Source of the DNA: Azonexaceae bacterium
GTDB taxonomy: Bacteria; Pseudomonadota; Gammaproteobacteria; Burkholderiales; Rhodocyclaceae
DNA length: 64,000 bases
Assembly: GCA_009469675.1 (NCBI GenBank)
Contig: SSSZ01000048.1
Span: forward strand, 10,570 to 74,569
Direction: 5' to 3'
Positions 5,978-64,000 of the stretch are shown here, one piece after another. The notes under the pieces are model-generated. The model made no database searches and was not told the DNA's origin. It saw only the letters and a list, made by a program, of their open reading frames with translations. Position 1 is the first letter of the stretch; each line of letters opens with the position of its first letter. The position numbers and the translations under genes were made by a program.

Positions 5978-6026
5978 TGTTGTTTTCGGGTGCTCAACCT
6001 AGGGGTTCCGCGCTTGAGGCGCGGGC

Positions 6027-6455: not shown

Positions 6456-6518
6456 GCCCGCCGGCCAGGCGGAACACGGCGCGAAACCAATCCATACCGC
6501 TTGAGGAATCCCACTCCC

Positions 6519-9296
6519 ATGACCCCCCTCATCCACTCCCTGAAACGCCAACTCCCGGAAAACCAGGTCATCACCGATGAACTCCGCCGCCTCGCCTACG
6601 GCACCGACGCGAGTTTCTACCGCCTCATCCCCGAGGTGATCGCCGTCGTCGAGAACGAGGAGGAAGTCCAGGCCGTACTGCACAGCGCCCGGTCCCACGG
6701 CCGGCCGGTGACTTTCCGCGCCGCCGGCACCAGCCTTTCCGGCCAGGCCATCACCGACGGGGTGCTGGCCCTGATCGGCGAGGGGTTCGCCACCTGCGAG
6801 ATCGCCCCCGACGCCGCCACCGTCCGCCTTGGCCCGGGGATGATCGGCGGCGAAGTCAATTACCGCCTTGCCCCCCTGGGACGCAAGATCGGTCCCGACC
6901 CCGCCTCGATCAACGCCTGCAAGATCGGTGGCATTGCGGCCAACAACGCTTCCGGCATGTGCTGCGGCACGGCCCAGAACAGCTACCGCACCCTGGCCGG
7001 AATGCGGGTGGTGCTGGCCGACGGCACCGTGCTCGACACGGAAGACCCCTTCAGCATCGCCGCCTTCCGCCAAAGCCACGCCGCCCTGGTCGGCGAACTC
7101 GACCTCCTGGGGCGCCAGACCCGGGGGGACGAGGCCCTGGCGGCCCGCATCCGCCACAAGTTCAAGATCAAAAACACCACCGGCTACAGCCTGAACGCCC
7201 TGGTCGATTACACCGACCCCATCGACATCCTGGCTCACCTGATGATCGGCTCCGAGGGCACCCTGGGCTTCATTTCCCGCATTACCTACTGCACCGTCGC
7301 CGAAGACCCCTGCAAGGCCAGCGCCCTGGTCTTCTTCCCCACCATCGGCACGGCCTGCCAGGCGGTCATCGCCCTCAAGCCCCAGCCGGTTTCGGCGGTC
7401 GAACTCCTCGACCGCCCGGCCCTGCGCTCGGTCGAGAACAAGCCCGGCCTGCCGCCGGTGATGAAGACCCTGGGCGACGAGGCGGCCGCCCTCCTGATCG
7501 AGGTCCGCGCCGAGCACGCCGCCGGCCTGCAGGCCAAGATCGGCGCCGCCCTGGAGGCCCTGGCCGGCATCGCCACCGTCGAAGCGCCGCAGTTTTCCAC
7601 CGATCCCGCCACCTGCGAGATGTACTGGAAGGTGAGAAAGGGCACTTTCCCCTCGGTCGGCGCAGTGCGCCGCACCGGCACCACGGTCATCATCGAAGAC
7701 GTGGCTTTTCCCATCGAGTCGCTCGCCGCCGCCACCCTCGACCTGCAGGCCCTGCTGCGGCAACACGGCTACCACGAGGCGATCATTTTCGGCCACGCCC
7801 TGGAGGGCAACCTCCATTTCGTCTTCACCCAGGACTTCGGAGACGCCGCCGAAATCCAGCGCTATTCGGACTTCATGGACGACGTCTGCCGGCTGGTGGT
7901 GGAAAAATACGACGGCTCGCTCAAGGCCGAGCACGGCACCGGCCGCAACATGGCGCCCTTCGTCGAAATGGAATGGGGCGCCCAGGCCACCGACCTGATG
8001 CGCCGCATCAAGGCCCTGTTCGATCCCGACCGGCTCCTCAACCCCGGGGTCATCCTCAACGAAGACCCGGCGGCCCATCTGCAGAACCTGAAACCCATGC
8101 CGGCCGCCGAGGACATCGTCGATCGCTGCATCGAATGCGGTTTCTGCGAACCCCTCTGCCCCTCCCACCGCCTCACCCTCAGCCCCCGCCAGCGCATCGT
8201 CAGCTGGCGTGAACTGTCCCGGCGCGAGGCCGCCGGCGAGGATGCCGGCCGCGTCGCCGCCGATTTCGCCTATTTCGGCCTCGACACCTGCGCCGGCTGC
8301 GGCCTTTGTTCCACCGCCTGCCCGGTGGGCATCGATACCGGCGAACTGACCCGCCGCCTGCGGGGCCGCGGCCTGGGCAGCGCCTCCCGCCAGGTCGGCC
8401 AATGGACGGCGGACAACTTCGGCAAGGTGGCAACGGCCTCCCGCATCGGCCTCAAGCTCGGCCACGCCGTATCAGGCGTGCTCGGCGACGGTTTTGTCTC
8501 GCGGGTCACCGGCGGTGCCTGGAAGCGGGACATGCCGCGGGCCGGCAAGGCGGCCGCCGTACGCACCGGCGAAGGCGACCCGGTGGTGTACTTTCCGGCC
8601 TGCGGCGGGCGCATCTTCGGCGGCAATACGGCCGAAGATGCCGGCCTGGCCGACGTGGTCATGGAACTCCTCGTCCGGGCCGGGTACGCCCCCGTCCTCC
8701 CCGCCGGTTTCGACAAACTGTGCTGCGGCCAGATGCTGGCCAGCAAGGGCCTGGCGGAAGAAGCCGAAGCCATGGCCGAAGCCGTCGCCAAGGCGCTGCT
8801 GGCGGCCGCCGACGACGGGAAAGGCGGGTTCCACCCGGTCATCATCGACGCCAGCGCGTGCACGACCCGCCTCCAGAAGCACCTGGCGGGCCGGCTGGCG
8901 GTCCTCGACTTCCACGAATTCGCCCACGATGCGCTGCTGCCTCGCCTGCGGGTGACCAAAAACCCCGGCCCGATCGCCCTCCATATCAACTGCAGCGTCC
9001 GCCGCACCGCTTCCGACGCCAAGCTGAGAGCGCTGGTCGCGGCCTGCGCCGAGGCTATCGTCGAACCGGCCGGGGTGACCTGCTGCGGCTTCGGCGGCGA
9101 CCGCGGCTTCGTCGTCCCCGAACTCAACGCCCATGCCCTGCGCCGAATTCACGGCAGCCTGCCGGATTCCTGCTGCGAAGGGGTTTCCACCAACCGCACC
9201 TGCGAAATCGGCCTGACCGCGGAGACCGGCCGGAGTTACCGCTCCGTCGCCTACCTGCTCGAGGAATGCAGCCGCAACCCCGGTGTCGCCTGCTGA
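6519..9296 (+). CDS. FAD-binding plus Fe-S/CCG-domain D-lactate dehydrogenase (Dld-II / YdiJ-like), 925 aa
   Basis: ORF track frame 6420..9296, with the internal ATG at 6519 (MTPLIHSLKRQLPENQV...). It has an FAD-binding PCMH-type N-terminal domain. C-terminal motifs are CIECGFCEPLCPS, CAGCGLCSTACPVGI, and CCG motifs (KLCCGQMLAS and TCCGFGGDRGF). Confidence 0.85.
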   Translation: MTPLIHSLKRQLPENQVITDELRRLAYGTDASFYRLIPEVIAVVENEEEVQAVLHSARSHGRPVTFRAAGTSLSGQAITDGVLALIGEGFATCEIAPDAATVRLGPGMIGGEVNYRLAPLGRKIGPDPASINACKIGGIAANNASGMCCGTAQNSYRTLAGMRVVLADGTVLDTEDPFSIAAFRQSHAALVGELDLLGRQTRGDEALAARIRHKFKIKNTTGYSLNALVDYTDPIDILAHLMIGSEGTLGFISRITYCTVAEDPCKASALVFFPTIGTACQAVIALKPQPVSAVELLDRPALRSVENKPGLPPVMKTLGDEAAALLIEVRAEHAAGLQAKIGAALEALAGIATVEAPQFSTDPATCEMYWKVRKGTFPSVGAVRRTGTTVIIEDVAFPIESLAAATLDLQALLRQHGYHEAIIFGHALEGNLHFVFTQDFGDAAEIQRYSDFMDDVCRLVVEKYDGSLKAEHGTGRNMAPFVEMEWGAQATDLMRRIKALFDPDRLLNPGVILNEDPAAHLQNLKPMPAAEDIVDRCIECGFCEPLCPSHRLTLSPRQRIVSWRELSRREAAGEDAGRVAADFAYFGLDTCAGCGLCSTACPVGIDTGELTRRLRGRGLGSASRQVGQWTADNFGKVATASRIGLKLGHAVSGVLGDGFVSRVTGGAWKRDMPRAGKAAAVRTGEGDPVVYFPACGGRIFGGNTAEDAGLADVVMELLVRAGYAPVLPAGFDKLCCGQMLASKGLAEEAEAMAEAVAKALLAAADDGKGGFHPVIIDASACTTRLQKHLAGRLAVLDFHEFAHDALLPRLRVTKNPGPIALHINCSVRRTASDAKLRALVAACAEAIVEPAGVTCCGFGGDRGFVVPELNAHALRRIHGSLPDSCCEGVSTNRTCEIGLTAETGRSYRSVAYLLEECSRNPGVAC

Positions 9297-9819: not shown

Positions 9820-12573
9820 ATGGTCCGCCACGACGACAAGGACGAACCCCTGCGGGCCAACATCCGCCTGCTCGGCCGTATTCTCGGCGACACCGTGCGC
9901 CAGCAGGATGGTGAGGCCGTTTTCGCCATCGTCGAGGGGGTGCGGCAGACCGCCGTACGGTTTGCCCGCCACGGCGACCCCGCGGCCCGGGCGGAACTGG
10001 CGGCCCTCCTCGACCCCCTGCCGCGGGATACCACCCAGGCCGTGGTCCGGGCCTTCAGCTATTTTCTCCAGCTCGCCAACATCGCCGAGGACCAGCACCA
10101 CATCCGGCGGCGCCGCGCCCACGACCTGGCCCACTCCCCGCCCCGGGAAGGCAGCCTGGACTACGCCCTGGAGCGCCTCGCCGAAGCCGGGGTCGATGCC
10201 GAAGCGGTGGCCGACTTTTTCGCCCACGCCCTCATCTCGCCGGTCCTCACCGCCCACCCCACCGAGGTGCAGCGCCAGAGCATGCTGCAGAACCAGCGGG
10301 AAATCGAGCGCCTGCTCGACCAGCGGGACCGCCAGCAGCTCACCCCGGAGGAGCAGGCGGAAAACGACACCGGCCTCTACCGCTCGGTCCTCACCCTGTG
10401 GCAGACCCGCATGCTGCGCCCGATCCGCCTCAAGGTCATCGACGAGGTCAAAAACGGCATCGGCTATTTCGCCAGCACCTTCTTCGCCGAACTGCCCAAG
10501 CTCTACATCGAGGCCAGCGACCGCCTGCAAGCCGCCTATCCCGGCCGGCCCTGGGCGCTGCCGCCCTTCCTGCGGGTGGGGAGCTGGATCGGCGGCGACC
10601 GGGACGGCAACCCCTTCGTCACCGCCGACATCCTGAAGGAAGCCCTGCGCCTCCAGTCGTCGGCCGTCCTTGACTTTTATCTTGCCGAAATCCACGCCCT
10701 GGGCGGCGAACTCCCCCTTTCCCAGCTGCTCGTGGGCATCACGCCGGAACTCGAAGGCCTTGCCGCGGCCTCCCCCGACAAATCGCCCCAGCGCTCGGAC
10801 GAACCCTACCGCCGCGCCCTGACCGGCATCTACGCCCGGCTCGCCGCGACGGCCCGCCGCCTCGATCGCCTGGAACCCCTGCGCCACGCCGTCGCCGACG
10901 CCGAACCCTATGGGCGTCCCGAGGCCCTGCGCGCCGACCTCAAGGTGCTCGCCGCGTCCCTCAAGCAGAACGGCGGCGCCCTTCTGGCCGGCGGTCGGCT
11001 GCGCCGCCTGGTGCGGGCGGTGCAAGTCTTCGGCTTTCATCTGGCGCCCATCGACCTGCGCCAGAATTCCGACGTCCATGCCCGCACCGTCGCCGAGCTG
11101 CTCGCCGCCGCCGGGCGCTGCCCGGACTACGAGGCCCTCGCCGAACCCGAGCGCATCGCCCTGCTCTGCCACGAACTCGAAACGCCGCGGCCGCTTTATT
11201 CGCCCTACCTCGACTATGGTGACGAAACCCGGGGCGAACTCGCCATCTTCTTTGCCGCCCGGGAACTGCGCCAGCGTTACGGCGCCGCCGCCCTGCCCAA
11301 CTGCATCATCTCCAAGACCGACGGCGTCTCCGACCTTCTCGAAGTCGCCCTGCTCCTCAAGGAATCCGGCCTCCTCCAGCCGGGCGCCGCGCCCCGCCTG
11401 GAAACCAACATCATCCCGCTGTTCGAAACCATCGGCGACCTGCAAAAGGCCGCCGCCACCATGGACGGCCTCTTCCGCCTGCCCGCCTACCGCGCCCTCC
11501 TCGCCACCCGCGGCATGGAACAGGAGGTCATGCTCGGCTATTCCGACAGCAACAAGGACGGCGGCTTTCTCACCTCGGGCTGGGAACTGTACAAGGCGGA
11601 AATCGCCCTCGCCCGCGTCTGCCAGGACCACGGCGTGCGGCTACGCCTCTTCCACGGCCGGGGCGGCTCGGTCGGCCGGGGCGGCGGCCCGAGCTACCAA
11701 GCCATCCTGGCCCAGCCGGCGGGGGCCGTTTCGGGCCAGATCCGGCTGACCGAACAGGGCGAGGTGATCGCCACCAAGTACGGCAATCCCGGCACCGGCC
11801 GCCGCAACCTGGAGGTACTGCTCGCCGCCACCCTCGAGGCCAGCCTCACCGACCACGAAAACCGCGTCGAGCCGGCCGCAGCGTTCCACCCGGTGATGGA
11901 CCGCCTGTCGCAACTGGCATTTGCCGCCTACCGCGGCCTGGTCTATGAAACCGCAGGCTTCAACACGTATTTCCGGCAATCCACCGTGGTTTCCGAAATC
12001 GCCACCCTCAACATCGGCAGCCGCCCGGCTTCGCGCAAGGCCTCGGACCGCATCGAAGACCTCCGCGCCATTCCCTGGGTCTTCAGCTGGGCTCAATGCC
12101 GGCTCATGCTGCCCGGCTGGTACGGCTTCGGCTCCGCCGTAGACGCCTGGCTGGGCGAAAACCCCGACGGCCTCGCCGTGCTGCGCCGCATGTTCCGGGC
12201 CTGGCCCTTCTTCCGCACCCTGATGTCGAACATGGACATGGTGCTCGCCAAGTCCGACCTCGCCATCGCTTCCCGCTACGCCGAACTGGTCCAGGACGAA
12301 AGCCTGCGCACCGCCGTCTTCGGCCGCATCCGCGCCGAATGGGAACGAACCCGGCGCCACCTGCTGGCCATCGAGGAGCAGGACGATTTCCTCTCCGACA
12401 ATCCGCTCCTCAAGCGTTCCATCGCCCAGCGCTTTCCCTACATGGACCCTCTCAACCACCTGCAGGTCGAACTGCTGCGCCGCTACCGCGGCGGCGAAAC
12501 CGACGAGCGGGTGGCCCGCGGCATCCACCTCACCATCAACGGCATCGCCGCCGGGCTAAGGAACAGCGGCTGA
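9820..12573 (+). CDS. ppc: phosphoenolpyruvate carboxylase
   Basis: ORF track frame 9466..12573. Start at ATG 9820 ([26 protein letters not shown]...). Motifs [16 protein letters not shown] and [14 protein letters not shown], with the C-terminal ...[12 protein letters not shown] typical of Ppc. Confidence 0.95.
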
Positions 12574-51941: not shown

Positions 51942-55154
<3,213 letters not shown>

Positions 55155-55158
<4 letters not shown>

Positions 55159-55484
55159 AGCGTCGCCCAGCGGGCGAACGGGCCGCCGAAGTAGGAAGTC
55201 AGGACGAGGGCGGCCGGCGCAAAGGCGACAAAAACCCGCAACACCCAGGCAATGAAGGGGTGTGCCACGTGCCCCTCGATGAAGCGGTGCACGACGATCG
55301 TCCCCTTGACCCAGACGATGACGGCGACCAGGGCCGGCAGCCAGACGGCGCCGTGGAACCATTGCCCGAGGCCGAGGCTGGCGAGGCTCAAGGCGACCAG
55401 CACCAGCCAGGCAAGGCCCAGGCCGGCCAGGGACGGGGGCGGGGGCGGGGGCGGGGGAACGGCAGGATGGGAGCCGGTGGTCAT
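55155..55484 (-). CDS. small 3-TM membrane protein, prokaryotic cytochrome oxidase subunit IV / NorF(NirP)-like, with N-terminal Pro8 run
   Basis: ORF track 109 aa. Three hydrophobic helices. It lies directly downstream of a CoxIII/NorE-like gene (3-nt gap). Confidence 0.65.
55435..55457 (+). repeat. (GGGGGC)x4 hexanucleotide tract = canonical G-quadruplex motif on the plus strand; encodes PPPPPPPP on the minus strand
   Basis: Read directly: GGGGGCGGGGGCGGGGGCGGGGG. Confidence 0.9.
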
Positions 55485-55487
55485 GGT

Positions 55488-56111
55488 TCAGGCGAGGACG
55501 TAGAAAAGCGGAAAAATCACCAGCCAGATGATGTCGGTGGCGTGCCAGTAGCTGGCCAGGGCCTCCAGGCCGCCGTGGTCTTCGGTCGAATAGCCGCCGG
55601 CCAGATGGCGGGCGAAGACCCACACCATGCCGAGGATGCCCCAGGACGCATGGACCAGGTGGTTGAAGGTGAGGTAGTAATACACCGTGAAAAAGATGCC
55701 CGAGCCGCCGTCGATACCCTGGGCCAGGTTCCAGCTCACCTCCAGGTACTTGGCCAGGGGGTAGCCCAGCGCCGTCACCAGGCCCGCTGCCAGCCAGTAG
55801 AGGGAGCGCCGGCGCTGACCGGCCCGCATGGTCGCCACCGAACAGGCAATGAAGAAACTACTGCTCACCATGAGCAGCGTGATGGCCGTCCCGGCGACGC
55901 GGGAAAGCCGGTCGGCGCCGGCCTGGAAAGCGTCGGGAAAATGGGCGCGGGCGACGAAATAGATGACGAACATGACGGTGAATTCGATCAGTTCGCAAGT
56001 GATACCGACCCAGATTCCCTTGTTGCCGGGAATCCAGCCCGACGCCTCCCGGGGCCGGGGATCGCCAGCGGCGCTGCCGGGATTGCCGAGATCGGCCGTT
56101 GCTTCGACCAT
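55488..56111 (-). CDS. cytochrome c oxidase subunit III family protein, NorE/NirO-like
   Basis: C-terminal 207 aa of ORF 55488..56483, from MVEATADLGNPGS. Five hydrophobic helices. The C-terminal YWHATDIIWLVIFPLFYVL is typical of CoxIII-family proteins. Confidence 0.78.
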   Translation of the reverse strand: MVEATADLGNPGSAAGDPRPREASGWIPGNKGIWVGITCELIEFTVMFVIYFVARAHFPDAFQAGADRLSRVAGTAITLLMVSSSFFIACSVATMRAGQRRRSLYWLAAGLVTALGYPLAKYLEVSWNLAQGIDGGSGIFFTVYYYLTFNHLVHASWGILGMVWVFARHLAGGYSTEDHGGLEALASYWHATDIIWLVIFPLFYVLA

Positions 56112-56304
56112 GGAAAAATCCGCCCTGTCGCACGAAAGGCTTTCATTCTCCCATGCGTCTCGCCGCTGCGCCGTAAGATAGATCAAAGTTTCGCCCGATG
56201 CCCGCACCGCCGTGGCCCCCGAAGTGTCGAAGCGGCGCCGGAGCGGGTACACTCGGGGGGCAAAGCTCGCCCCCGCCCCTTCCGTATTGCCCCGCCGCCC
56301 GCCC

Positions 56305-57054
56305 ATGCCCCATTTCGCCCGCCTGCTCCTCGCCGCCGCCCTGGCTTTCGCCCGCCCTGCCGGGGCCGGCGAGATCACTCTGGCGGTGGCGGCCAATTTC
56401 ACCGCCCCGATGCAGGCCATCGCCGCCGAATTCGCCCGCGACACGGGCCACGTCGCCCGCCCCGCCTTCGGCGCCACGGGCACCCTTTACGCTCAGATCA
56501 GCCGCGGCGCCCCCTTCGATCTCTTCCTGGCGGCCGACGAAGAAACCCCGGCCCGCCTGGAAAGCGAATCCCTGGCCGTGGCCGGCAGCCGTTTCGTCTA
56601 TGCCACCGGCCGCCTCGTCCTGTGGTCGCCCCGGCCGGATGGGGTGGACCGCGATGCCCAGGTGCTGCGTACCGGCGCCTTCGCCCATCTCGCCGTCGCC
56701 AACCCCAGGACTTCGCCTTACGGCAGCGCCGCCCTCGCCGTCCTCGACCAACTCGGCCTCAAGGACGCCCTGGCGCGGCGCCTGGTGATCGGCGAGAGCA
56801 TCGCCCAGACCTATCAGTTCGTCGCCAGCGGCAATGCCGCACTGGGTTTCGTCGCCCTCTCCCAGGTCAGCAAGGACGGCCGCCTCGCCGCCGGGTCGGC
56901 CTGGATCGTCCCGGCCCACCTCCACCGGCCGCTCCGCCAGGAGGCGGTCCTTCTCCTCCGGGGCCAGGACAAACCCGCCGCCCGGGCGTTTCTCGACTAC
57001 CTGCGCGGCGCCAAGGCCCGCGCCATCATCCGCACCTACGGCTACGAATCATGA
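56305..57054 (+). CDS. modA: molybdate-type (ModA family) periplasmic oxyanion-binding protein
   Basis: ORF track frame 56212..57054, with the start at MPHFARLLLAAALAFARPAGAGEITLAVAANF (signal peptide). ModA-like motifs FGATGTLYAQISRGAPFDLFLAAD and NPRTSPYGSAA. Confidence 0.82.
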   Translation: MPHFARLLLAAALAFARPAGAGEITLAVAANFTAPMQAIAAEFARDTGHVARPAFGATGTLYAQISRGAPFDLFLAADEETPARLESESLAVAGSRFVYATGRLVLWSPRPDGVDRDAQVLRTGAFAHLAVANPRTSPYGSAALAVLDQLGLKDALARRLVIGESIAQTYQFVASGNAALGFVALSQVSKDGRLAAGSAWIVPAHLHRPLRQEAVLLLRGQDKPAARAFLDYLRGAKARAIIRTYGYES

Positions 57055-58418
57055 CGCCGCCGGCCCGCCCCGATCCTTCCCCCAAGGAGACGCCACCCCC
57101 CGCCGTGGGCTTCCGGGAAGCTTTTCTCTTCTGGCTCAAGCTCGGCTTCATCAGTTTCGGCGGGCCGGCCGGGCAAATCGCCATCATGCACCAGGAACTG
57201 GTGGAAAAACGCCGCTGGATTTCCGAGAAGCGCTTCCTCCATGCCCTCAATTACTGCATGCTGCTCCCCGGTCCCGAAGCCCAGCAGCTCGCCACCTACA
57301 TCGGCTGGCTGCTCCACCGCACGGGCGGCGGCATCGTCGCCGGCGGCCTGTTCGTCCTCCCCTCCCTCGTCATCCTCGTCGCCCTGTCCTGGGTCTACGT
57401 GGCCTTTGGCCAAACCGCCCTGGTCGCAGGCTTGTTCTACGGCATCAAACCGGCGGTGACCGCCATCGTCGTCCACGCCGCCCACCGCATCGGCAGCCGG
57501 GCCTTGAAGAACGGCGTGCTCTGGTCGGTGGCGGCGGCGGCTTTCGTCGCCATCTTCGCCCTGGAACTCCCCTTTCCCCTGATCGTCGGCGGGGCGGCCT
57601 TGGTCGGCATGGCTGGCGGACACCTGGCGCCAGCCCGCTTCCAGCTCGGGGGCGGCTCCGGGGGGGCCGGCAAGTCTTACGGCCGGGCCTGCCTCGACGA
57701 CGATACGCCGACCCCGCCCCACGCCCGCTTCACCTGGCCTCGCCTGCTCCGGGTCGGGGCGGCCGGCGGCCTCCTCTGGGTCGCCCCCATGGCGCTGCTC
57801 GCCGCGGCCTACGGCTGGAACCACACCCTGACCCGGATGGGCTGGTTTTTCACCAAGGCGGCGCTCCTCACCTTCGGCGGAGCCTACGCCGTGCTGCCCT
57901 ACGTCTATCAAGGCGCGGTGGGCGACTACGGCTGGCTCTCCCCGGCCCAGATGATCGACGGCCTGGCCCTGGGCGAAACGACGCCGGGGCCACTCATCAT
58001 GGTGGTGGCCTTCGTCGGTTTTGTCGGCGCTTACGGCAAGGCCGTCTTCGGCCCGGAAAACCTCTTCTTGGCCGGCGCCGCAGCGGCGGCGCTGGTCACC
58101 TGGTTCACCTTCCTGCCGTCCTTCGTGTTCATCCTGGCGGGCGGCCCGCTGGTCGAAAGCACCCACGGCGACCTCAAATTCACCGCCCCGCTGACTGCCA
58201 TTACCGCCGCCGTGGTGGGCGTCATTCTCAATCTGGCGCTCTATTTCGCCTACCATGTCCTGTGGCCGGCCGGGCTGGCCGGAGCCTTCGACGGGATCGC
58301 CGCCGTCCTCGCTCTGGCCGCCGCCCTTGCCCTCTTTCGCTGGCGCTGGTCGGTCATGCAGGTCATCGGCGCAGCGGCGCTCCTGGGATTGCTTATCAAG
58401 TTCACCGCCGCCGCCTGA
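57051..58418 (+). CDS. chrA: CHR-family chromate ion transporter (long-chain ChrA)
   Basis: C-terminal 455 aa of the 1396-aa ORF 54228..58418. ATG 57051 overlaps the modA stop (ATGA). Two CHR halves are present (FLFWLKLGFISFGGPAGQIAIMH... and FTKAALLTFGGAYAVLPYV...). Confidence 0.9.
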   Translation: MTPPARPDPSPKETPPPAVGFREAFLFWLKLGFISFGGPAGQIAIMHQELVEKRRWISEKRFLHALNYCMLLPGPEAQQLATYIGWLLHRTGGGIVAGGLFVLPSLVILVALSWVYVAFGQTALVAGLFYGIKPAVTAIVVHAAHRIGSRALKNGVLWSVAAAAFVAIFALELPFPLIVGGAALVGMAGGHLAPARFQLGGGSGGAGKSYGRACLDDDTPTPPHARFTWPRLLRVGAAGGLLWVAPMALLAAAYGWNHTLTRMGWFFTKAALLTFGGAYAVLPYVYQGAVGDYGWLSPAQMIDGLALGETTPGPLIMVVAFVGFVGAYGKAVFGPENLFLAGAAAAALVTWFTFLPSFVFILAGGPLVESTHGDLKFTAPLTAITAAVVGVILNLALYFAYHVLWPAGLAGAFDGIAAVLALAAALALFRWRWSVMQVIGAAALLGLLIKFTAAA

Positions 58419-58460
58419 GATCGGCCAAGCCGTTGACGCGCCCGGCCCGGACGTTCGGCC

Positions 58461-60095
58461 CTACTGCAGCGCCGACGCCAGGATGGCCTGGGCCTCGGCG
58501 ACGATGGCCGCCAGGTGGTCGGCGCTCCTGAAGCTCTCGGCGTAGAGCTTGTAGATATCCTCGGTTCCCGAGGGCCGGGCGGCGAACCAGCCCTGGGCGG
58601 TGGTCACCTTGAGGCCGCCGATGGCGGCATGGTTGCCCGGAGCGCGGGTCATTTTGGCGAGTATGGGGTCGCCGGCCAGGGTGGACGCCGCCACCCGCTC
58701 ACCGGTCAGCCCTTTGAAAGCGGCCTTCTGGGCAGGGGTGGCGGGGGCGTCGATGCGCCGGTAATAGGGCGTACCGAAACGGGCGGCCAGATCCTGGTAG
58801 TGGCGCCCTGGATCCTTGCCGGTGACGGCGGTGATTTCGGCGGCGAGCAGGCCGAGGATGATGCCGTCCTTGTCGGTGGTCCACACCGTGCCGTCCCGGC
58901 GCAGGAAGCTCGCACCGGCGCTTTCCTCGCCGCCGAAACAGAGGCTGCCGGCGAGCAGGCCGGGGGAGAACCATTTGAACCCGACCGGGACTTCCAGCAG
59001 CGGCCGGTCCAGGCTCGCCACCACCCGGTCGATCAGGCCGCTCGACACCAGGGTCTTGCCGACGGCGGCGCCGGTCGGCCACCGGGGCCGGTGGCCGAGC
59101 AGGTAGTGGATGGCGACCGCCAGAAAGTGGTTGGAGTTCAGCAAACCCAGGGAGGGCGTGACGATGCCGTGGCGGTCCACGTCGGCGTCGTTGCCCCAGG
59201 CGATGGCGAAGCGGTCCTTGAGGCCGACCAGGCCGGCCATGGCGTAGGGGCTGGAACAGTCCATGCGGATCTTGCCGTCGTGGTCCAGGGGCATGAAGGC
59301 GAAGGCCGGATCAACGCGGGGATTGACCACCTCGATGTCCAGGCCGTAGCGGGCAGCGATCGGCGCCCAGTAGGCCACCGCGGCACCGCCCAAGGGGTCG
59401 ACCCCGATCTTGAGGCGCGAACGGCGGATCGCCTCGAAGTCGATGACATTCTCCAGGTCGGCGACGTAGGGAGCGACAAAATCCTCCTGGACGACCTGGG
59501 GGGCGGCCAACGCCTGGGCGTAAGGGATGCGCTTCACGCCGCGATTGCCCTCGGCCATCAGGGCGTTGGCGCGCTGCTCGATCCAGCCCGTGACATCGGT
59601 GTCGGCCGGGCCGCCGTGGGGCGGGTTGTATTTGATCCCGCCATCCTGGGGCGGATTGTGGGAGGGGGTGATGACGATGCCGTCGGCGGCCCGGGCCGGG
59701 TTGTCCCGGTTGTGCACCAGGATCGCCCGGGAGATCACCGGCGTCGGCGTATAGCCATCCCCCGCCTGGCAGCGGGTCGGCACCCCGTTGGCGGCCAGCA
59801 CCTCCAAGGCGGTGCATTGGGCCGGCGCCGACAGGGCATGGGTGTCCTTACCCAGAAACAGGGGGCCGCGGATTCCTTTTTCCGCCCGGTATTCGCACAC
59901 CGCCTGGGTGATGGCCAGGATATGCGCTTCGTTGAAACTGCCGCACAACGCGCTGCCCCGGTGGCCGCTGGTGCCGAAAGCGACCCGCTGGGCGGGGTCG
60001 TCAATCTCGGGGGCCTTGCGGTAGGCGGCCAGGAGGGCCGGAAGGTCGGCGAGTGCCGCGGCGGGAGCCGGCTGGCCGGCAAGGAGATGGGTCAT
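58461..60095 (-). CDS. pgm: phosphoglucomutase (alpha-D-glucose phosphate-specific)
   Basis: ORF track 58461..60242, with the internal start [11 protein letters not shown]. It has the active-site loop [15 protein letters not shown], Mg loop [10 protein letters not shown], and GGEESAG. Confidence 0.93.
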
Positions 60096-60229
60096 GGCAT
60101 GCCCTTTGGAGGTGGATCGCACCCGGCAATATACTCCCGTCCCGGCGGAGCCAGGGAAGGGCTTCTGCTCCCCGGACGATCGCCACAGTCTCGGGCGGTC
60201 CGCCCCGGCCCAAAGCCCTGACGAAAAGA

Positions 60230-60259
60230 AAAAACCCGCCAACGAATCGGCGGGTTTTT
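60230..60259 (-). terminator. intrinsic terminator AAAAACCCGCC-aacgaatc-GGCGGGTTTTT (bidirectional shape; on the minus strand followed by TTTTTTCTTTTC)
   Basis: Read directly. It has an 11-nt complementary arm (7-bp GC core ACCCGCC/GGCGGGT flanked by the A and T runs). It lies about 150 nt downstream of the SRAP gene stop and upstream of pgm. Confidence 0.75.
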
Positions 60260-60406
60260 CATGAATCTATGGGGCACATACCGGGATCGAAAATACTTCT
60301 AGATCTATTGTGCCGCAATCAATAGTACCGATTAGGAAAATTAATATACCCTTATGTGTACCTTCATGGTTTTGGAGTGGCAAATGTGCAACGGTTCGAT
60401 CCCGTA

Positions 60407-61063
60407 TCATGCCATTCGGATTGGATCAGCTTCGATCAATTCTGGTGCCGGCGGACGCAAAAGCCCAAAGATTTCACTACCTGCTCCGCTCAACCACTGC
60501 TCAAGGTTGCATGCCTCGACGGCAACCACGCTCCGCTTGTCCTGCTGATCCGGTGGCAATTTCGGATCAGGCTTGTGCATCCGGCTCATGTACGGATGGT
60601 CATCAGCGTTCACGGTCAGCATGGTGTAGCTCTCCACTATCTCGCCGGAGCGCCGATCCACCCAGGTATTCCAGAGCCCTGCCAAGCCCCATGGAAGACG
60701 GTCAGCACGCCGGAACCGCCACCAGACATTCTTGCCCGTCTCCCAACACGGTTCGTCGAAGGACATGGCCGGAATGATGCACCGCTGCCCTTGGCGCCAG
60801 GCATCCCGGAACGTGGGTTTTGCTGCGGCCTCCTCGGATCGGCAGTTGTTCGTGGCGTATTTCAGCGTCGGTGTTTTCGACCACGATGGAATCAGGCCCC
60901 AGGTGCCGACAACGAGGCGCAGCTTGCCGGATGCATCGAGGCGAAGGAATGGTGCTTGGGAGCGCGGGAAGACCTCCGATGCCCATTTGGGCTGATTGTG
61001 CCGGCCGATATGCCAGGCGCGTTCAATGGCGGCCTGATCTGGGGTGATGTAGCGGGTACACAT
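60407..61063 (-). CDS. SOS response-associated peptidase (SRAP / YedK / DUF159)
   Basis: ORF track 60407..61114. The true start is inferred at MCTRY (the catalytic Cys2 must follow the initiator Met). Motifs WGLIPSW, RCIIPAMSF-EP and AGLWNTW. Confidence 0.88.
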   Translation of the reverse strand: MCTRYITPDQAAIERAWHIGRHNQPKWASEVFPRSQAPFLRLDASGKLRLVVGTWGLIPSWSKTPTLKYATNNCRSEEAAAKPTFRDAWRQGQRCIIPAMSFDEPCWETGKNVWWRFRRADRLPWGLAGLWNTWVDRRSGEIVESYTMLTVNADDHPYMSRMHKPDPKLPPDQQDKRSVVAVEACNLEQWLSGAGSEIFGLLRPPAPELIEADPIRMA

Positions 61064-61264
61064 GCCCAAAGCGTACATACCCACCTCCGGGCTGGCAACT
61101 TTGCAGCGGTTCAAATTCTGGCCGTAACACGGCGCGTAATTTGTGCGGCGCCGCCCATGGCAGTGGTGACAGCCTCCGCCCTGCTTGCAATCACGGCGCC
61201 CGGTTGCTGTCAGTGGGTGCTACGTCGCACTGGGCCAGGAGTGCCCAGCGCCCGGAGAAGCATC

Positions 61265-61286
61265 CCTGGTGCCGGCGATCACCAGG
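61265..61286 (-). terminator. weak hairpin CCTGGTG-ccggcgat-CACCAGG about 20 nt downstream of the 62-aa ORF
   Basis: Read directly. 7-bp stem. On the minus strand only a poor U-tract follows. Confidence 0.3.
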
Positions 61287-61305
61287 CCGGTGCCCGGCAA
61301 GGGGC

Positions 61306-61494
61306 TTAATCGGCGAATTCGGCGCGCATGGCGGCAACTACATCGGTTGCCTTGTGCTGCGGCAATTCCAACAGGGCACCGGGCTGGTATTTCTTGCCGT
61401 CCACATAGCACTCCCGCACGATGCGGATCTTGCAGGGAGCCATTGGCTGTTCGTACGGCATGCGCAGGACGGCGGGGCGACTCTGAGAGAACAT
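61306..61494 (-). CDS. 62-aa hypothetical protein translationally coupled to the capsid gene
   Basis: ORF track 61306..61500 (GTG). ATG 61494 is preferred because TAAGGAG lies 7 nt upstream, where TAA is the capsid stop. No family recognised. Confidence 0.55.
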   Translation of the reverse strand: MFSQSRPAVLRMPYEQPMAPCKIRIVRECYVDGKKYQPGALLELPQHKATDVVAAMRAEFAD

Positions 61495-61503
61495 GGCCAC
61501 TCC

Positions 61504-62604
61504 TTAAGTAATCGAACTCGAAGAGACCCAGGCGGCCGGCGTCTGGATCGCCACGTCGACATCGAGGACCAGGCGTGCGTCTACGGTCAGGCTCTTGAAC
61601 CCGCTGGGGTCGAAGGGATTGATCTCGATACGCGGATTTCCCCAAATCGGCAGCAATAGATTGCTCCAGGGGCCGGAAATCATGGTGGCGGCGGGCATCA
61701 GGGTACTAGCGAAAGCGCCCCGGCCGGCCAGACGGTTTTCAGCGCCGTTACAGGACCAGAGCGCGCCGCTGCCGGTGGCGATCTCCCGCGTCCGAAGCAG
61801 CTTGCGAACGGCCGGGGTGGTGAGATACGCGAAACTCTCATCGTCGCCGTTGTTATCCGCACAGGTTTGTTCCATCGCAAGGGCTGCGGACGCACCGAAC
61901 GATGCGCCGGGTTGAGTGCCGAGTCCTGCCGTATTCAAGATGCCAGTCGGCTGGCCAGAGGCGCCGGTTCCAGAAATGACCGCCTGATCGATCATCTGGC
62001 CGATGGTTTTCAGCAATTCACGCTGAATCGTGGCGTCGGCGATTTCGCTTTGCACGTTCAATTGCCTTGAGAACCGGATTAAGGCCGCGGCCGACTTGCG
62101 GGACATGCTGATTTGCGCAAGAGTCGGTTGGCTCGGGGTAATTGTCGCCGTTTCGGAAGCCAGCCAGTTACCCGTCGTTGCGGCCGTCGTTTTCGGGATC
62201 GACAGGGGGCCATCCTTTTCCGCTGCCGGAATAACGGTAACGCCGCACCTGGCGGAAATCGACCAGGGCCGCAGGATGTCCCGAACATCGGACCGGATCG
62301 TTCCGACCAGATAGCCTCCGGCAGAGCCGCCGCCGACCGACAAGTCGCGGTTCAGCGTGTCCGGGCGGGCGGTGGGGTCGGCGATCAGTGCAAGCGGGAT
62401 ACCTTGCCGCTGAGGGTCGTACCCAAGGGGTGATGACCGGGATATCTCGGTCATGACTTCACGCTCATAACCGTCGAGACGGCTTCCGTCGAAGGACATT
62501 GCAGCGAGAAGTCGGGAAAAGCTGAAAGCCCGGGGGGCGCGGGCGGATCGCTCAGAGGCGACCCGAGACGCTGCGGGGCTGTGGTTTCGGAATACAGCGG
62601 CCAT
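61504..62604 (-). CDS. phage major capsid protein, HK97 family
   Basis: ORF track 61504..62634. ATG 62604 is preferred (AAGGA 8 nt upstream). AALIRFSRQLNVQSEIADATIQRELLKTIGQMIDQAVISGTGASGQPTGIL aligns by eye with the HK97 gp5 region [50 protein letters not shown]. Confidence 0.85.
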   Translation of the reverse strand: MAAVFRNHSPAASRVASERSARAPRAFSFSRLLAAMSFDGSRLDGYEREVMTEISRSSPLGYDPQRQGIPLALIADPTARPDTLNRDLSVGGGSAGGYLVGTIRSDVRDILRPWSISARCGVTVIPAAEKDGPLSIPKTTAATTGNWLASETATITPSQPTLAQISMSRKSAAALIRFSRQLNVQSEIADATIQRELLKTIGQMIDQAVISGTGASGQPTGILNTAGLGTQPGASFGASAALAMEQTCADNNGDDESFAYLTTPAVRKLLRTREIATGSGALWSCNGAENRLAGRGAFASTLMPAATMISGPWSNLLLPIWGNPRIEINPFDPSGFKSLTVDARLVLDVDVAIQTPAAWVSSSSIT

Positions 62605-62672
62605 GGTTATGATCCTTTGGTGGTTGGTTGCCATGCCATTGGGCCGGAATTCGCGGGAAACAGGCGGGCCGA

Positions 62673-63083
62673 TTACTTCCCGGCCAGGATGTTGCAGTAT
62701 TGCCGGCGAGACAGGTTCATTTGCGCCCCGCTTTGGGCCGCAAAAAACAACGCCCCATCGAGCGGCGAGCAGCCTTCCGGCGGGGCGGGAAGGGCCTTCC
62801 AGAGGTGCCAGCGATGGCGCAGGAAGACGATCACCGCCCTCCGCAGTTCCGCGGCACGATCACCGGCGGCCAATTCCTCCCCGGCCAGGCGGAGCCAGTA
62901 GTCGCGTGCAGCAATCGCTGCCCGCCCCCTGGTTGCAGGAAGACGAAGGAAGGCCGGCAAGCGGGCCGCCTCTCCTCCATGAACCCACCAGCGCCGGATG
63001 CCGTCGGCCAACCACCGCCGGCTCTCGTCGTCCAATTCCCCGGTGGCGGCGATGCGAGCAGCGAGAAGTATGGCGTCGGCCAT
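62673..63083 (-). CDS. 136-aa hypothetical protein (Arg/Trp/Ala-rich, helical)
   Basis: ORF track 136 aa, co-oriented between the HTH gene and the capsid gene. No motif that I can assign with confidence. Confidence 0.5.
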   Translation of the reverse strand: MADAILLAARIAATGELDDESRRWLADGIRRWWVHGGEAARLPAFLRLPATRGRAAIAARDYWLRLAGEELAAGDRAAELRRAVIVFLRHRWHLWKALPAPPEGCSPLDGALFFAAQSGAQMNLSRRQYCNILAGK

Positions 63084-63121
63084 TTCGCCAGGGGCGTGAG
63101 TAGATAGAAGCCCGCCCCGTC

Positions 63122-63712
63122 CTATTTAGCCTCATCGCACTCGCCGAGCTCAGACAGCAATACGTCGATTTCGGCGGCTAGCTTGGCGAACTCGGGGGAG
63201 GCTGGGGGGTGAAGGTCGGGGTTAAGGTCGTACTGCTTGTCGCTGCCAAATATGACCATGTAGCCATTGAGCAGATGGGCGGCCAGGCGCTGAGATTGAG
63301 CGCCATCGATGGCAAGGCCGGCGTCGGCGGAACATGCGGCGATCAGGATCGGTCGGAAAAAGTAACGCGGAACGAGTCGGGTGATTGCCATTTCGCTTGC
63401 TTGGATCGCTATCCACTCGCTCGTGTCTCCGTGGTCTGCAAAGCGGGCGGGCATTTTTTCCAGATCCGAGTCGTGCCAAAGCGGGCCACCATCTCCTTTG
63501 GCATGCGGTACGGCATCAGGCCGCGCACGCTTCTCGTCCTGTACGCCGGGATTGCCGTCGACGCGCCACTCCTTCCGCCGTGCAGAATCGAGGTTCTTGT
63601 CCCGCCAGCGCCTGGCGGCTTCTACGCTATGCGTGGGCATGCCCCTATCTTTCAGCTTGTAGCCCATGGCCAAGCTGATACCCAAGGCTTCCGTCAGGTC
63701 TTTCATTATCAT
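63122..63712 (-). CDS. HTH DNA-binding protein resembling a phage terminase small subunit N-terminus
   Basis: ORF track 196 aa. MKDLTEALGISLAMGYKLKDRGMPTHSVEAARRWRDKNL resembles the HTH typical of TerS or phage DNA-binding proteins. The C-terminal two thirds are unassigned. Confidence 0.5.
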   Translation of the reverse strand: MIMKDLTEALGISLAMGYKLKDRGMPTHSVEAARRWRDKNLDSARRKEWRVDGNPGVQDEKRARPDAVPHAKGDGGPLWHDSDLEKMPARFADHGDTSEWIAIQASEMAITRLVPRYFFRPILIAACSADAGLAIDGAQSQRLAAHLLNGYMVIFGSDKQYDLNPDLHPPASPEFAKLAAEIDVLLSELGECDEAK

Positions 63713-63821
63713 AGTAGAAACCTATTACCTACATTCAACCTACGCAAATGTTTCTATGACTAGGCCGCAAGTGGGGTGCGAATGACCCGTGATGGAAAGT
63801 GCCAGGGAGGACCCGCGATAT

Positions 63822-63998
63822 TCACCGGGCGCTCCTCATGGCTTCGTCAAATGCCACACCGAATTGAATTGGCCACTCGTGTTCGACGATTGCCATGGCC
63901 TTGTCCTTGAAGTTGAAGCGTGGTCTGTACTTCGCCAGCCTATCCGGGAAGACGATGAGCGGAATCAGTTGGCGCCTGCTCGCCGATAACTGCACGCG
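63822..63998 (-). CDS. 3' end (58 codons) of a minus-strand ORF that starts beyond the window
   Basis: My translation reads ...RVQLSASRRQLIPLIVFPDRLAKYRPRFNFKDKAMAIVEHEWPIQFGVAFDEAMRSAR*, with stop TGA at 63822-63824. It is co-oriented with the island genes. Function unknown. Confidence 0.4.
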   Translation of the reverse strand, partial: RVQLSASRRQLIPLIVFPDRLAKYRPRFNFKDKAMAIVEHEWPIQFGVAFDEAMRSAR

Positions 63999-64000
63999 CT

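What the first reader, a model, noticed from the sequence alone, without database searches (positions are those of the whole stretch)
60260..64000. Compact phage-derived island: TerS-like HTH plus a lone HK97 capsid gene, with no portal, protease or large terminase between them
The whole window is syntenic core genome until pgm. The sequence then changes character. An AT-richer spacer (60260-60400) is followed by five co-oriented minus-strand ORFs: HTH/TerS-like (63712-63122), a 136-aa unknown, an HK97-family capsid, a 62-aa coupled ORF and SRAP. Normal HK97-type head modules run terS-terL-portal-protease-capsid. Here the TerS-like gene and the capsid gene are separated by only one small ORF. 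Capsid-forming PICIs (a class of phage-inducible chromosomal islands) carry portal, protease and connectors as well. PICMI-type and P4-type satellites carry no HK97 capsid. This arrangement therefore fits none of the satellite classes I know. It could be a minimal capsid-bearing satellite that hijacks a helper phage's portal, protease and terminase. It could also be a decayed prophage. The island is cut by the window edge, so integrase and replication genes cannot be assessed.
Basis: partly seen in the sequence, partly recalled or inferred. Interest (0 to 1): 0.7.

Follow-up and report, generated by a model that had tools for sequence, protein, structure and literature searches.

The report
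Minimal capsid-encoding cos phage satellite
The region is the right-hand 3.7 kb of a complete, excision-competent 8.6-8.7 kb island in a tRNA-His gene that carries a phage packaging (cos) site, a small-terminase-like gene and one capsid gene but no portal, protease, large terminase or tail, so it is most likely a phage satellite of an undescribed, widespread family.

Summary
Five co-oriented minus-strand ORFs follow pgm after a GC drop, including a bona fide HK97-family capsid gene with no portal, protease or TerL.

Near-identical contigs from other assemblies extend the island past the window end. It is 8.6-8.7 kb: tRNA-His | integrase, RadC, regulators, phrog_1924-like gene, cos-like site, TerS-like gene, orphan 136-aa protein, capsid, small ORF, SRAP | attR (window 60270-60291) | pgm. 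One contig is circular across an attP junction, so excised or tandem molecules exist.

About a dozen other genera carry the same architecture. Where att repeats or circular contigs bound the island (9 cases) the size is 8.4-9.5 kb.

The capsids derive from protease::capsid fusion proteins of about 34-45 kb lambda-like cos phages. A conserved 40-nt element upstream of the TerS-like gene (window 63775-63814) is shared with 120 or more phage contigs. There it lies between the last gene and TerS, and eight contigs end 9-17 nt downstream of it, six of them at 9-10 nt. This marks it as a cos site.

Best reading: a cos-type satellite that uses helper TerL, portal, protease and tail, and its own capsid protein to make small heads (inferred). 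A decayed prophage is excluded. Precedents exist (SaPIbov5 Ccm, MCP-carrying tycheposons), so this is a new variant of a known kind.

The parts
60270..60291 (-). attR: 22-nt copy (TTCGATCCCGGTATGTGCCCCA) of the 3' end of tRNA-His. This is the right-hand boundary of the island.
   Evidence: attL is L171:119-141 (TTCGATCCCGGTATGTCGCCCCA), inside the tRNA-His(GTG) gene at L171:66-141. Other assemblies have a perfect 23-nt attR. The window copy lacks one C at 60275.
60407..61078 (-). SRAP (SOS-response-associated peptidase) gene, accessory cargo at the att-proximal end. The likely true start is 61063 (M-C-T-R-Y).
   Evidence: PF02586 E 7e-32 and phrog_1599 E 2e-41. It lies inside the att-bounded island and inside the circular contig.
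61306..61494 (-). 62-aa ORF starting 9 nt after the capsid stop. It is related to the small gene that follows the capsid gene in the phage relatives.
   Evidence: hhalign against phage cluster c6: probability 91%, E 1e-6. It gives a weak hit to phrog_2616 (E 0.07), and the phage L181 counterpart hits the same family at 2e-6.
61504..62604 (-). HK97-family major capsid protein, 366 aa, without a protease or scaffold domain.
   Evidence: Residues 96-376 align to residues 339-615 of a phage S78-protease::capsid fusion at 32% identity. 69% identical to the Dechloromonas island capsid, dN/dS 0.17.
62673..63083 (-). 136-aa protein specific to these islands, always immediately upstream of the capsid gene. 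A compact 7-helix fold of unknown function.
   Evidence: No Pfam, PHROG, NCBIfam, PADLOC or PDB sequence hit. 206 representative clusters hit at E<=1e-3. AF2 pLDDT 94.7, with no PDB or BFVD fold match (E>1). Its HMM hits only ORFs upstream of stand-alone capsids. dN/dS 0.21.
63122..63712 (-). 196-aa TerS-like protein (N-terminal HTH).
   Evidence: hhalign against phage TerS cluster c7 (phrog_57): probability 96.1%, E 3e-9 over residues 1-113. It occupies the position of TerS directly after the cos-like element. Positional counterparts in sister islands are full-length phrog_57 TerS (E 5e-26). No direct HMM hit. The AF2 model is unusable.
63775..63814 (-). cos-like element: motif A GGGTCCTCCCTGG (63814-63802) and motif B CGGGTCATTCGCACC (63789-63775). 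The predicted terminase cut is near 63776.
   Evidence: The element sits at the same place in 11 sister islands with different TerS types. It occurs in 120 or more viral contigs between the c14 gene and TerS-TerL-portal. Eight of those contigs end 9-17 nt past the matched pattern, six of them at 9-10 nt, and one ends in Illumina adapter.
63822..64000 (-). 3' end (last ~59 codons) of the 235-aa phrog_1924-like gene. In the phage relatives this is the last gene before cos.
   Evidence: Window 64000-60151 equals L171:5123-8972 at 99.92% identity. L171:4594-5301 hits phrog_1924 at E 3e-42 and is 66% identical to the homolog in phage contig L181. Position in phages.

Best explanation
The window holds the capsid-proximal 43% of an 8.6-8.7 kb integrative phage satellite.

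Shown:
- The island is inserted in the 3' end of tRNA-His and bounded by 22/23-nt att repeats.
- It can be found as a circular or tandem attP junction.
- It encodes a P4-type tyrosine integrase, RadC, a RovC-like regulator and an AlpA/Xis-like HTH protein.
- It then carries a block copied from the ends of a lambda-like cos phage genome: last gene (phrog_1924-like), cos-type element, TerS-like gene. This is followed by an island-specific 136-aa protein, a capsid gene that has lost the protease/scaffold half found in the phage homologs, the small post-capsid gene, and SRAP as cargo.
- It has no TerL, portal, protease, connector, tail or lysis genes.

Inferred mechanism:
- On infection or induction of a helper phage of the protease::capsid-fusion lineage (about 34-45 kb, GpA-type TerL, lambda-type portal), the island excises and replicates.
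- Its TerS-like protein directs the helper TerL to the island's cos site.
- Unit-length 8.6-kb DNA is packaged cos-to-cos into small heads. These are built wholly or partly from the island's capsid protein on the helper's portal, matured by the helper protease and joined to helper tails.
- The 136-aa protein is the best candidate for a partner that replaces the missing scaffold or sets head size. This is the weakest step.
- The narrow 8.4-9.5 kb size range is about 0.22 of the helper genome, which is what a T=3 shell would hold.
For: Structure, boundaries and mobility of the island:
- Extension beyond the window and full gene content.
- att sites and tRNA-His.
- Circular contig L172 has a 30-nt overlap (k=31) across an attP junction. 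The exact att repeat is only 16-23 nt, shorter than k, so the junction is not a graph artefact.

The family:
- The same architecture occurs in Dechloromonas, Azonexus, Zoogloeaceae, Steroidobacteraceae, Rubrivivax, Thiobacillus, Gallionellaceae, Lysobacteraceae, Burkholderiales and Nitrospira.
- Among loci with at least 5 kb upstream, stand-alone capsid loci have a portal in 0/20, TerL in 0/20 and an integrase in 13/20. Fusion-capsid loci have a portal in 22/32, TerL in 23/32 and an integrase in 0/32.
- Sizes bounded by att repeats or circular contigs are 8376-9482 bp in 9 independent islands, with at least seven different tRNA targets among the eight att-bounded ones.
- Purifying selection: dN/dS 0.17 for the capsid and 0.21 for the 136-aa gene.

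Link to the helper-type phages:
- The phage gene order is c14, motif, TerS, TerL(GpA), c2, portal_2, S78::capsid.
- The cos-like motif is shared with 120 or more viral contigs, and contig ends cluster within 9-17 nt of it, one of them ending in Illumina adapter.
- TerS likeness.
Against: - No experiment. Induction, packaging and small capsids are all inferred.
- No helper phage is identified for this host, and cultured phages match the capsid only at 33% identity or less, and partially.
- The window-type island has no recognisable replicase, unlike most relatives, which carry a primase-helicase-like gene.
- The 196-aa protein has no direct HMM hit to TerS, and its structure could not be modelled.
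- The window's attR has a 1-nt deletion, which might impair excision of this particular copy.
- The circular contig could come from a tandem array rather than a free circle.
- The cos assignment rests on right-end contig termini only. Left ends could not be sampled with the pattern used.
- In a rough NJ tree the stand-alone capsids are not all monophyletic.
Confidence: 0.75

Rival explanations
1. It is a satellite, but it is packaged as a 4-5-mer concatemer into full-size helper heads. The island capsid protein would not build small heads. It would act otherwise, for example by substituting at vertices, interfering with helper assembly, or providing superinfection exclusion.
For: 4 x 8.9 kb is about 36 kb, which fits the 34-45 kb helper-type genomes. 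Marine VEIMEs and PICMIs are packaged as concatemers without remodelling (PMC9618062, PMC10803314). The capsid protein lacks its own scaffold and protease.
Against: Concatemer-packaged satellites described so far carry no capsid gene. A capsid gene conserved under purifying selection, with a dedicated partner gene, across many genera is more easily explained by a structural role. A cos-to-cos mechanism cuts at every cos site unless head filling prevents it.
Confidence: 0.15
2. It is primarily an anti-phage defence island. The capsid and TerS homologs, together with the cos copy, act as decoys that poison assembly or packaging of the cognate phage, with little or no transfer of the island itself.
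For: Satellites commonly interfere with helpers. Ccm blocks phi12 reproduction (PMC8569155). The island carries phage-derived parts only for the steps that can be sabotaged.
Against: No PADLOC defence family is hit beyond weak HTH and JAB matches. The island has an integrase, att sites, an attP junction, a cos site and a tightly constrained genome size. Size constraint is pointless unless the DNA is packaged. Spread across many genera and tRNA targets implies horizontal transfer.
Confidence: 0.06
3. It is a decayed prophage remnant whose head module has been shuffled and deleted.
For: All morphogenetic genes have phage homologs in the same order.
Against: The unit is complete and att-bounded, with an intact integrase. 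The ORFs are intact in 30 or more assemblies. dN/dS is 0.11-0.21. The same compact layout and size recur in about a dozen genera. A family-specific gene, the 136-aa protein, is never seen in phages. A circular junction exists.
Confidence: 0.02
4. It is a domesticated capsid (an encapsulin-like nanocompartment) used by the host.
For: A lone HK97-fold shell gene without portal or terminase resembles encapsulin operons superficially.
Against: It matches Phage_capsid and TIGR01554, not the encapsulin families. There is no cargo enzyme. It sits inside a mobile island next to a cos site and a TerS-like gene.
Confidence: 0.02

Closest known systems
cos-type SaPIs (SaPIbov5) with Ccm
   Same: A small integrative satellite that carries the helper's cos site and a single HK97-fold capsid-protein homolog. 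It has no portal, protease or TerL. Ccm redirects helper assembly to small heads sized for the island (PMC8569155, PMC5052747).
   Different: SaPIbov5 is from a Gram-positive host and has the SaPI regulatory and replication backbone. No TerS is involved. Ccm forms only the pentamers of a T=4 shell. Here there is an additional TerS-like gene, a phrog_1924-like gene and an orphan 136-aa partner. The genome is about 8.7 kb rather than about 14 kb. Sequence homology to Ccm was not tested.
PICI-like tycheposons of Prochlorococcus
   Same: Small tRNA-targeting tyrosine-recombinase elements with a replication module. They carry a lone MCP or a terS gene and are proposed to hijack phage capsids (10.1101/2020.12.28.424599).
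   Different: They are described as carrying either MCP or terS. Here both are present, together with a cos site. The host phyla differ. No shared genes were tested.
P4-like satellites
   Same: A cos satellite with a P4-type integrase (Arm-DNA-bind_3 + Phage_int_M + Phage_integrase). It uses the helper's terminase, and its genome is a fixed fraction of the helper's.
   Different: P4 remodels P2 capsids with the external scaffold Sid and has no capsid gene or TerS. It has an alpha primase-helicase, Psu and Delta. None of these was detected here.
Capsid-forming PICIs (cf-PICIs)
   Same: The satellite encodes its own HK97-type capsid protein and a TerS.
   Different: cf-PICIs also encode a portal, protease, head-tail connectors and often TerL/HNH, and they steal only tails (PMC10690885 summary; 10.1101/2022.09.08.507074). 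All of these are absent here.
Lambda-like cos phages with S78 protease::capsid fusion (phrog_617; e.g. contig L181)
   Same: These are the source lineage of the island's phrog_1924-like gene (66% identity), cos-type element, TerS-like gene, capsid domain (32% identity) and post-capsid small gene, in the same order.
   Different: The phages are 34-45 kb and carry GpA TerL, a head-tail joining protein, a lambda-type portal, a protease domain and tails. The island keeps only the genes that flank cos, plus the capsid domain.

Membership tests
Phage satellite (PICI-like integrative element) | Site-specific integrase and flanking att repeats | tested here: met
   411-aa integrase next to tRNA-His. 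22/23-nt direct repeats lie at L171:119-141 and at window 60270-60291.
Phage satellite (PICI-like integrative element) | Small size and lack of a complete virion gene set (no TerL, portal, tail, lysis) | tested here: met
   8.6-8.7 kb. Pfam, PHROG and NCBIfam scans of all island ORFs find none of these. 0/20 related loci have a portal or TerL.
Phage satellite (PICI-like integrative element) | Excision or circularisation | tested here: met
   Circular contig L172 spans the attP junction. The exact repeat is shorter than the assembler's k. A tandem array is not excluded.
Phage satellite (PICI-like integrative element) | Own replication module (primase/helicase or Rep plus ori) | tested here: inconclusive
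   None is recognisable in the window-type island. Relatives have a 460-810-aa primase-helicase-like gene.
Phage satellite (PICI-like integrative element) | Packaging signal or packaging genes matched to a helper phage | tested here: met
   The cos-type element is shared with 120 or more phage contigs, at the TerS-proximal genome end. TerS-like gene.
Phage satellite (PICI-like integrative element) | Helper-dependent induction, packaging and transfer | not testable with these tools
   This needs culture, a helper phage and particle DNA analysis.
Capsid-forming PICI | Own portal, prohead protease and head-tail connectors in addition to the capsid protein | tested here: not met
   Absent from the complete island. 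The capsid lacks the S78 domain.
P4-like satellite | Sid/Psu capsid-size factors, Delta activator, alpha primase | tested here: not met
   No such hits in the Pfam or PHROG scans. Only the integrase type and cos use are shared.
cos-SaPI / Ccm-type capsid redirection | A lone capsid-protein homolog plus the helper cos site in a satellite lacking portal, protease and TerL | tested here: met
   This is a match of function and architecture, not of descent.
cos-SaPI / Ccm-type capsid redirection | SaPI backbone (Stl-type repressor, pri-rep, Gram-positive host) and homology to Ccm | not tested
   No Ccm or SaPI sequences were compared. The host and backbone genes are clearly different.
HK97-family major capsid protein (PF05065 / TIGR01554) | Score above the curated cut-off | tested here: met
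   68.8 bits against a 24.2 cut-off, and 74.2 bits against 27.5.
Terminase small subunit (phrog_57 / DUF1441 type) | Sequence membership of the 196-aa protein | tested here: inconclusive
   No direct HMM hit. hhalign to the phage TerS cluster gives probability 96.1%, E 3e-9, over the N-terminal 113 residues only. Its position after cos agrees with TerS.
Encapsulin | Encapsulin-family shell protein with an adjacent cargo protein and no mobile-element context | tested here: not met
   It hits the Phage_capsid family only. No cargo gene is present. It lies inside an att-bounded island.

The most novel reading that the evidence does not exclude
These islands define a widespread, undescribed class of 'capsid-plus-cos' minimal satellites. 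Their own capsid protein, together with the orphan 136-aa helical protein acting as scaffold or size determinant, builds a T=3 head on a stolen portal. That would be the smallest tailed-phage-type DNA container known, holding 8.4-9.5 kb, about 0.22 of the helper genome.
Probability: 0.25. Interest if true: 0.8.

Novelty: new variant of a known kind. Interest (0 to 1): 0.62.

Why it matters
This would add a satellite family with the leanest capsid-encoding morphogenetic module yet seen: cos, TerS, one capsid gene and one orphan partner. Its hosts (Rhodocyclales, Burkholderiales, Nitrospira and others) are important in wastewater and soils, and satellites there are essentially unstudied.

The very narrow genome-size range and the loss of the protease/scaffold half of the capsid gene make a concrete prediction that can be tested directly. 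The prediction concerns how head size is reprogrammed: T=3 heads versus concatemer packaging.

The conserved cos-type element gives a simple sequence handle for finding both the satellites and their helper phages in metagenomes. The 136-aa protein is a confident new fold with a likely role in capsid assembly.

Tried and rejected
- Exact-sequence look-ups of the window's capsid (376-aa form), pgm and 196-aa proteins found nothing. The source assembly is not in the collection, and the GTDB representative genomes also lack it.
- A metagenome scan with the capsid gave only four distant partial matches.
- The first alignment was too diverse for locus finding.
- The AF2 model of the 196-aa protein, built from a 3-sequence alignment, was unusable (pLDDT 39.8).
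- The confident model of the 136-aa protein matched nothing in PDB or BFVD (E>1). A PDB sequence profile search also found nothing.
- hhalign of the 136-aa family against every common phage head-module cluster was negative.
- PADLOC found no defence system.
- Rfam gave only a sub-threshold Leu-leader hit over the pgm terminator, taken as chance.
- A sigma-54 promoter reading of motif A was considered by eye and dropped, because the GG-N10-GC spacing does not hold across the aligned islands.
- No paper contains the motif string.
- The gene caller's 219-aa ORF beyond the window looks like an out-of-frame artefact. A 178-aa ORF in another frame has no family hits.

Full report
OBSERVATION. Downstream of pgm (58461-60098, four PGM/PMM domains) GC drops from about 0.69 to 0.51-0.62. 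Five co-oriented minus-strand ORFs follow:
- SRAP, 60407-61078 (PF02586, E 7e-32).
- A 62-aa ORF, 61306-61494.
- An HK97-family capsid gene, 61504-62604 (PF05065 E 7e-19; TIGR01554 E 1e-20; phrog_617 E 2e-36, matching only the C-terminal half of that 626-position profile).
- A 136-aa ORF, 62673-63083.
- A 196-aa ORF, 63122-63712.

The 136-aa and 196-aa proteins hit no Pfam, PHROG or NCBIfam model. No tRNA gene lies in 55000-64000. The description is therefore correct. Only the 'TerS-like' label needed further work.

EXTENDING THE ISLAND. The source assembly is not in the searchable collections. A homolog search with the 196-aa protein found a 99%-identical protein in 31 blocks of the collection.

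Contig L171 (8972 bp) matches window 64000-60151 at 99.92% over its positions 5123-8972. Its first 5122 bases therefore show what lies to the right of the window. The full unit is:
- tRNA-His(GTG)
- 411-aa integrase (Arm-DNA-bind_3, Phage_int_M, Phage_integrase)
- RadC
- a 291-aa RovC-type DNA-binding protein
- a 73-aa HTH_17/excisionase-like protein
- about 800 bp without a convincing gene
- a 79-aa zinc-ribbon-like ORF
- a 235-aa phrog_1924-like protein (E 3e-42)
- the 196-aa, 136-aa, capsid, 62-aa and SRAP genes
- pgm

. The window's last 179 nt are the 3' end of the 235-aa gene. There is no portal, protease, TerL, connector, tail or lysis gene anywhere.

BOUNDARIES AND MOBILITY. The last 23 nt of tRNA-His (TTCGATCCCGGTATGTCGCCCCA, L171:119-141) recur at window 60291-60270 on the minus strand. 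The window copy has one C deleted. Four other assemblies have the perfect 23-mer.

Contig L172 (Logan, k=31) has a 30-nt terminal overlap, so it is circular at 8585 bp. Its junction reads SRAP-side sequence, att core, integrase-side sequence, which is an attP. The exact repeat (16-23 nt) is shorter than k-1, so a de Bruijn graph cannot create this junction without reads that span it. Excised circles or tandem copies therefore exist in that sample. The island is a discrete 8.6-8.7 kb element, and SRAP is cargo inside it.

A FAMILY, NOT A ONE-OFF. The capsid has 124 relatives at E<=1e-5. The closer ones are stand-alone proteins of about 365 aa. The distant ones are Peptidase_S78::capsid fusions of about 620 aa.

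The 69%-identical Dechloromonas homolog sits in an 8750-bp island bounded by a 48-nt repeat of tRNA-Cys. That island carries an integrase, RadC, a 530-aa primase-helicase-like gene, a 288-aa phrog_1924-like gene, a 194-aa protein with a TerS-type HTH (phrog_57, E 4e-8), a 136-aa protein (74% identical to the window's), the capsid gene and a small ORF.

I scanned 185,579 representative genomes and IMG/VR, then called and clustered ORFs myself. This shows the same layout in Azonexus, Zoogloeaceae, Steroidobacteraceae, Rubrivivax, Thiobacillus, Gallionellaceae, Lysobacteraceae, Burkholderiales and Nitrospira: integrase, small genes, usually a primase-helicase-like gene, a TerS-like gene of about 200 aa, a gene of about 136-175 aa, the capsid gene and a small ORF.

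Among loci with at least 5 kb upstream:
- Stand-alone capsids have a portal in 0/20, TerL in 0/20 and an integrase in 13/20.
- Fusion capsids have a portal in 22/32, TerL in 23/32 and an integrase in 0/32.

Sizes bounded by att repeats or by circular contigs are 8376, 8585/8713, 8750, 8774, 8786, 8838, 9134, 9431 and 9482 bp. The eight att-bounded islands use at least seven different tRNA targets. One of the nine, L020, is a 9134-bp circular contig.

dN/dS between the window and Dechloromonas copies is 0.17 for the capsid, 0.21 for the 136-aa gene and 0.11 for RadC. Decay is excluded.

WHERE THE PARTS COME FROM. In the fusion-capsid phages the head region reads: phrog_1924-like (my cluster c14), TerS (c7 = phrog_57/DUF1441), TerL (GpA_ATPase + GpA_nuclease), a head-tail joining protein (c2, phrog_5774), a lambda-type portal, S78::capsid, a small ORF (c6/phrog_2616), then an FII-like connector.

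The island keeps c14, TerS-like, capsid domain and small ORF in that order. It inserts the 136-aa gene.
- The window capsid aligns to residues 339-615 of a phage fusion at 32% identity. Its first about 95 residues have no counterpart in the protease/linker half.
- The 62-aa ORF matches the phage post-capsid family (hhalign probability 91%).
- The 196-aa family matches the phage TerS cluster at probability 96.1%, E 3e-9, over residues 1-113.
- In sister islands the gene at this position is a full-length phrog_57 TerS (E 5e-26 and 5e-23).
- The island's 235-aa protein is 66% identical to that of a 36-kb phage contig but only 31% identical to the Dechloromonas island's copy. The 196-aa and 194-aa proteins are not BLAST-detectably related.

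The cos-flanking genes therefore swap between islands, presumably tracking helpers. The 136-aa and capsid pair is inherited together.

The 136-aa family has 206 representative clusters. Within the loci fetched up to that point it is found only directly upstream of stand-alone capsids. It folds confidently (pLDDT 94.7) into seven helices with no PDB or BFVD neighbour.

A SHARED COS-TYPE ELEMENT. Nucleotide comparison revealed a conserved non-coding stretch between the 235-aa and 196-aa genes. It consists of GGGTCCTCCCTGG (window 63814-63802), then 12 nt, then CGGGTCATTCGCACC (window 63789-63775).

The same element, with 0-2 mismatches, lies 75-102 nt upstream of the TerS-like start in 11 sister islands, whatever their TerS type. 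It also occurs in one phage. About 0.06 exact 13-mers were expected by chance in the 2 Mb searched, and five independent exact copies were seen.

Many of these are 34-45 kb. I estimate about 20 chance matches under uniform base composition, so I checked context. After orienting each contig by the motif:
- TerS follows in 81 contigs.
- TerL follows in 74.
- A portal follows in 35.
- c14 ends 40-70 nt before the end of the matched pattern in most of the 35 contigs that carry it.

Eight contigs terminate 9-17 nt after the matched pattern. Six of them end at 9-10 nt, always with c14 as the last gene where it is present. One runs straight into Illumina adapter sequence (AGATCGGA). This is the signature of a physical genome end. 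I therefore read the element as the cos site of this phage lineage, with the cut near window 63776. Only right-hand ends could be sampled with this pattern.

MECHANISM. Shown: the island is a mobile, size-constrained, att-bounded element that carries a phage-type cos element, a TerS-like gene and a capsid gene stripped of its protease/scaffold half, and nothing else of a virion.

Inferred: a helper of the fusion-capsid, GpA-terminase lineage supplies TerL, portal, protease, connectors and tail. The island's TerS-like protein and cos site capture the terminase. The island's capsid protein makes or reshapes heads to fit 8.6 kb.

The size ratio to the motif-bearing phages is about 0.22. T=4 satellites hold about 0.35 of their T=7 helpers, against a geometric expectation of 0.43. 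Scaling the T=3 geometric value (0.28) in the same way gives about 0.23. This estimate rests on my own knowledge of P4 and SaPI1 sizes. A T=3 head is therefore a quantitative fit, but four to five copies in a helper-size head fit as well.

The role of the 136-aa protein as scaffold or size determinant is a guess based on position, co-inheritance and the missing scaffold domain.

COMPARISON WITH KNOWN SYSTEMS.
- cf-PICIs also encode a portal, protease and connectors (PMC10690885; 10.1101/2022.09.08.507074). That membership test fails.
- P4 shares cos use and integrase type but uses Sid and has no capsid gene.
- VEIMEs and PICMIs encode no capsid protein (PMC9618062; PMC10803314).
- The nearest working analogue is SaPIbov5. 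It is a cos satellite whose lone capsid homolog Ccm occupies the pentamers of small T=4 heads and is processed without a SaPI protease (PMC8569155).
- PICI-like tycheposons are described as carrying either an MCP or a terS.

The lone-capsid idea is therefore not new. The combination of cos, TerS-like gene, truncated capsid and orphan partner, the 8.4-9.5 kb size class and the host range were not found in the literature I could search. Cultured phages match the capsid only distantly.

VERDICT. The island is a new variant of a known kind, of moderate-to-high interest. Functional steps remain inferred.

Noticed in passing
L171:3473-3613 (island DNA about 1.5 kb beyond the window end) and L001:5479-5631: A non-coding stretch of about 150 nt is 75% identical between the window-type and Dechloromonas islands, although the flanking genes are unrelated. 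It may be an origin or a regulatory region.
   Followed up: no
L171:3610-4269 and L171:3614-4150: The 219-aa gene called by the source pipeline looks like an out-of-frame Arg/Pro-rich artefact. A 178-aa ORF in another frame looks protein-like but has no Pfam or PHROG hit. The window-type island thus has no recognisable replicase.
   Followed up: partly
L009:9365-9425 and 11398-11458: The Zoogloeaceae island has two copies (75% identical, 61 nt) of the cos-like element, flanking its capsid module 2033 bp apart.
   Followed up: no
L275 (IMG/VR contig, 11,553 bp): After the cos-type motif this element carries TerS, TerL, a member of the 136-aa family and a capsid domain. It may be an intermediate between the phages and the minimal islands. 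L251 (8922 bp) is another island-like contig in IMG/VR.
   Followed up: no
L008:6192-6266 and L013:8956-9045: Iteron-like short tandem repeats occur inside sister islands: a 10-nt period repeated five times in the Steroidobacteraceae island, and GGTTTTGCGGATATTGCG repeats in the Nitrospira island. They may be replication origins.
   Followed up: no
window 60275: The window's attR lacks one C that is present in four other assemblies of the same locus (22 instead of 23 nt). This could reduce excision of this copy, or it could be a sequencing or assembly difference.
   Followed up: partly
window 63822-64000 / L171:4594-5301: PHROGs labels phrog_1924 'minor tail protein'. In the phages this gene is the last one before the cos end and lies directly upstream of TerS, and the tail-less islands retain it. 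The label is doubtful, and a packaging or late-regulation role seems more likely.
   Followed up: partly
window 63692 and 63708: The window differs from all ten other assemblies of this island at two positions in the first codons of the 196-aa gene. This changes one residue, and otherwise there are 1-3 differences in 3.8 kb. The island is nearly clonal across samples.
   Followed up: partly
window 60228-60367: Rfam gives a sub-threshold Leu_leader hit (28 bits against a gathering score of 50). It overlaps the pgm terminator hairpin and the att region and is taken as chance.
   Followed up: yes
L170 (74-kb contig of the same locus): This independent assembly ends inside the 235-aa gene, at window position 63910. 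That may indicate a repeat or strain-variable region there. L171 and L172 also differ by indels in the regulator region (L171:2284-3253).
   Followed up: no
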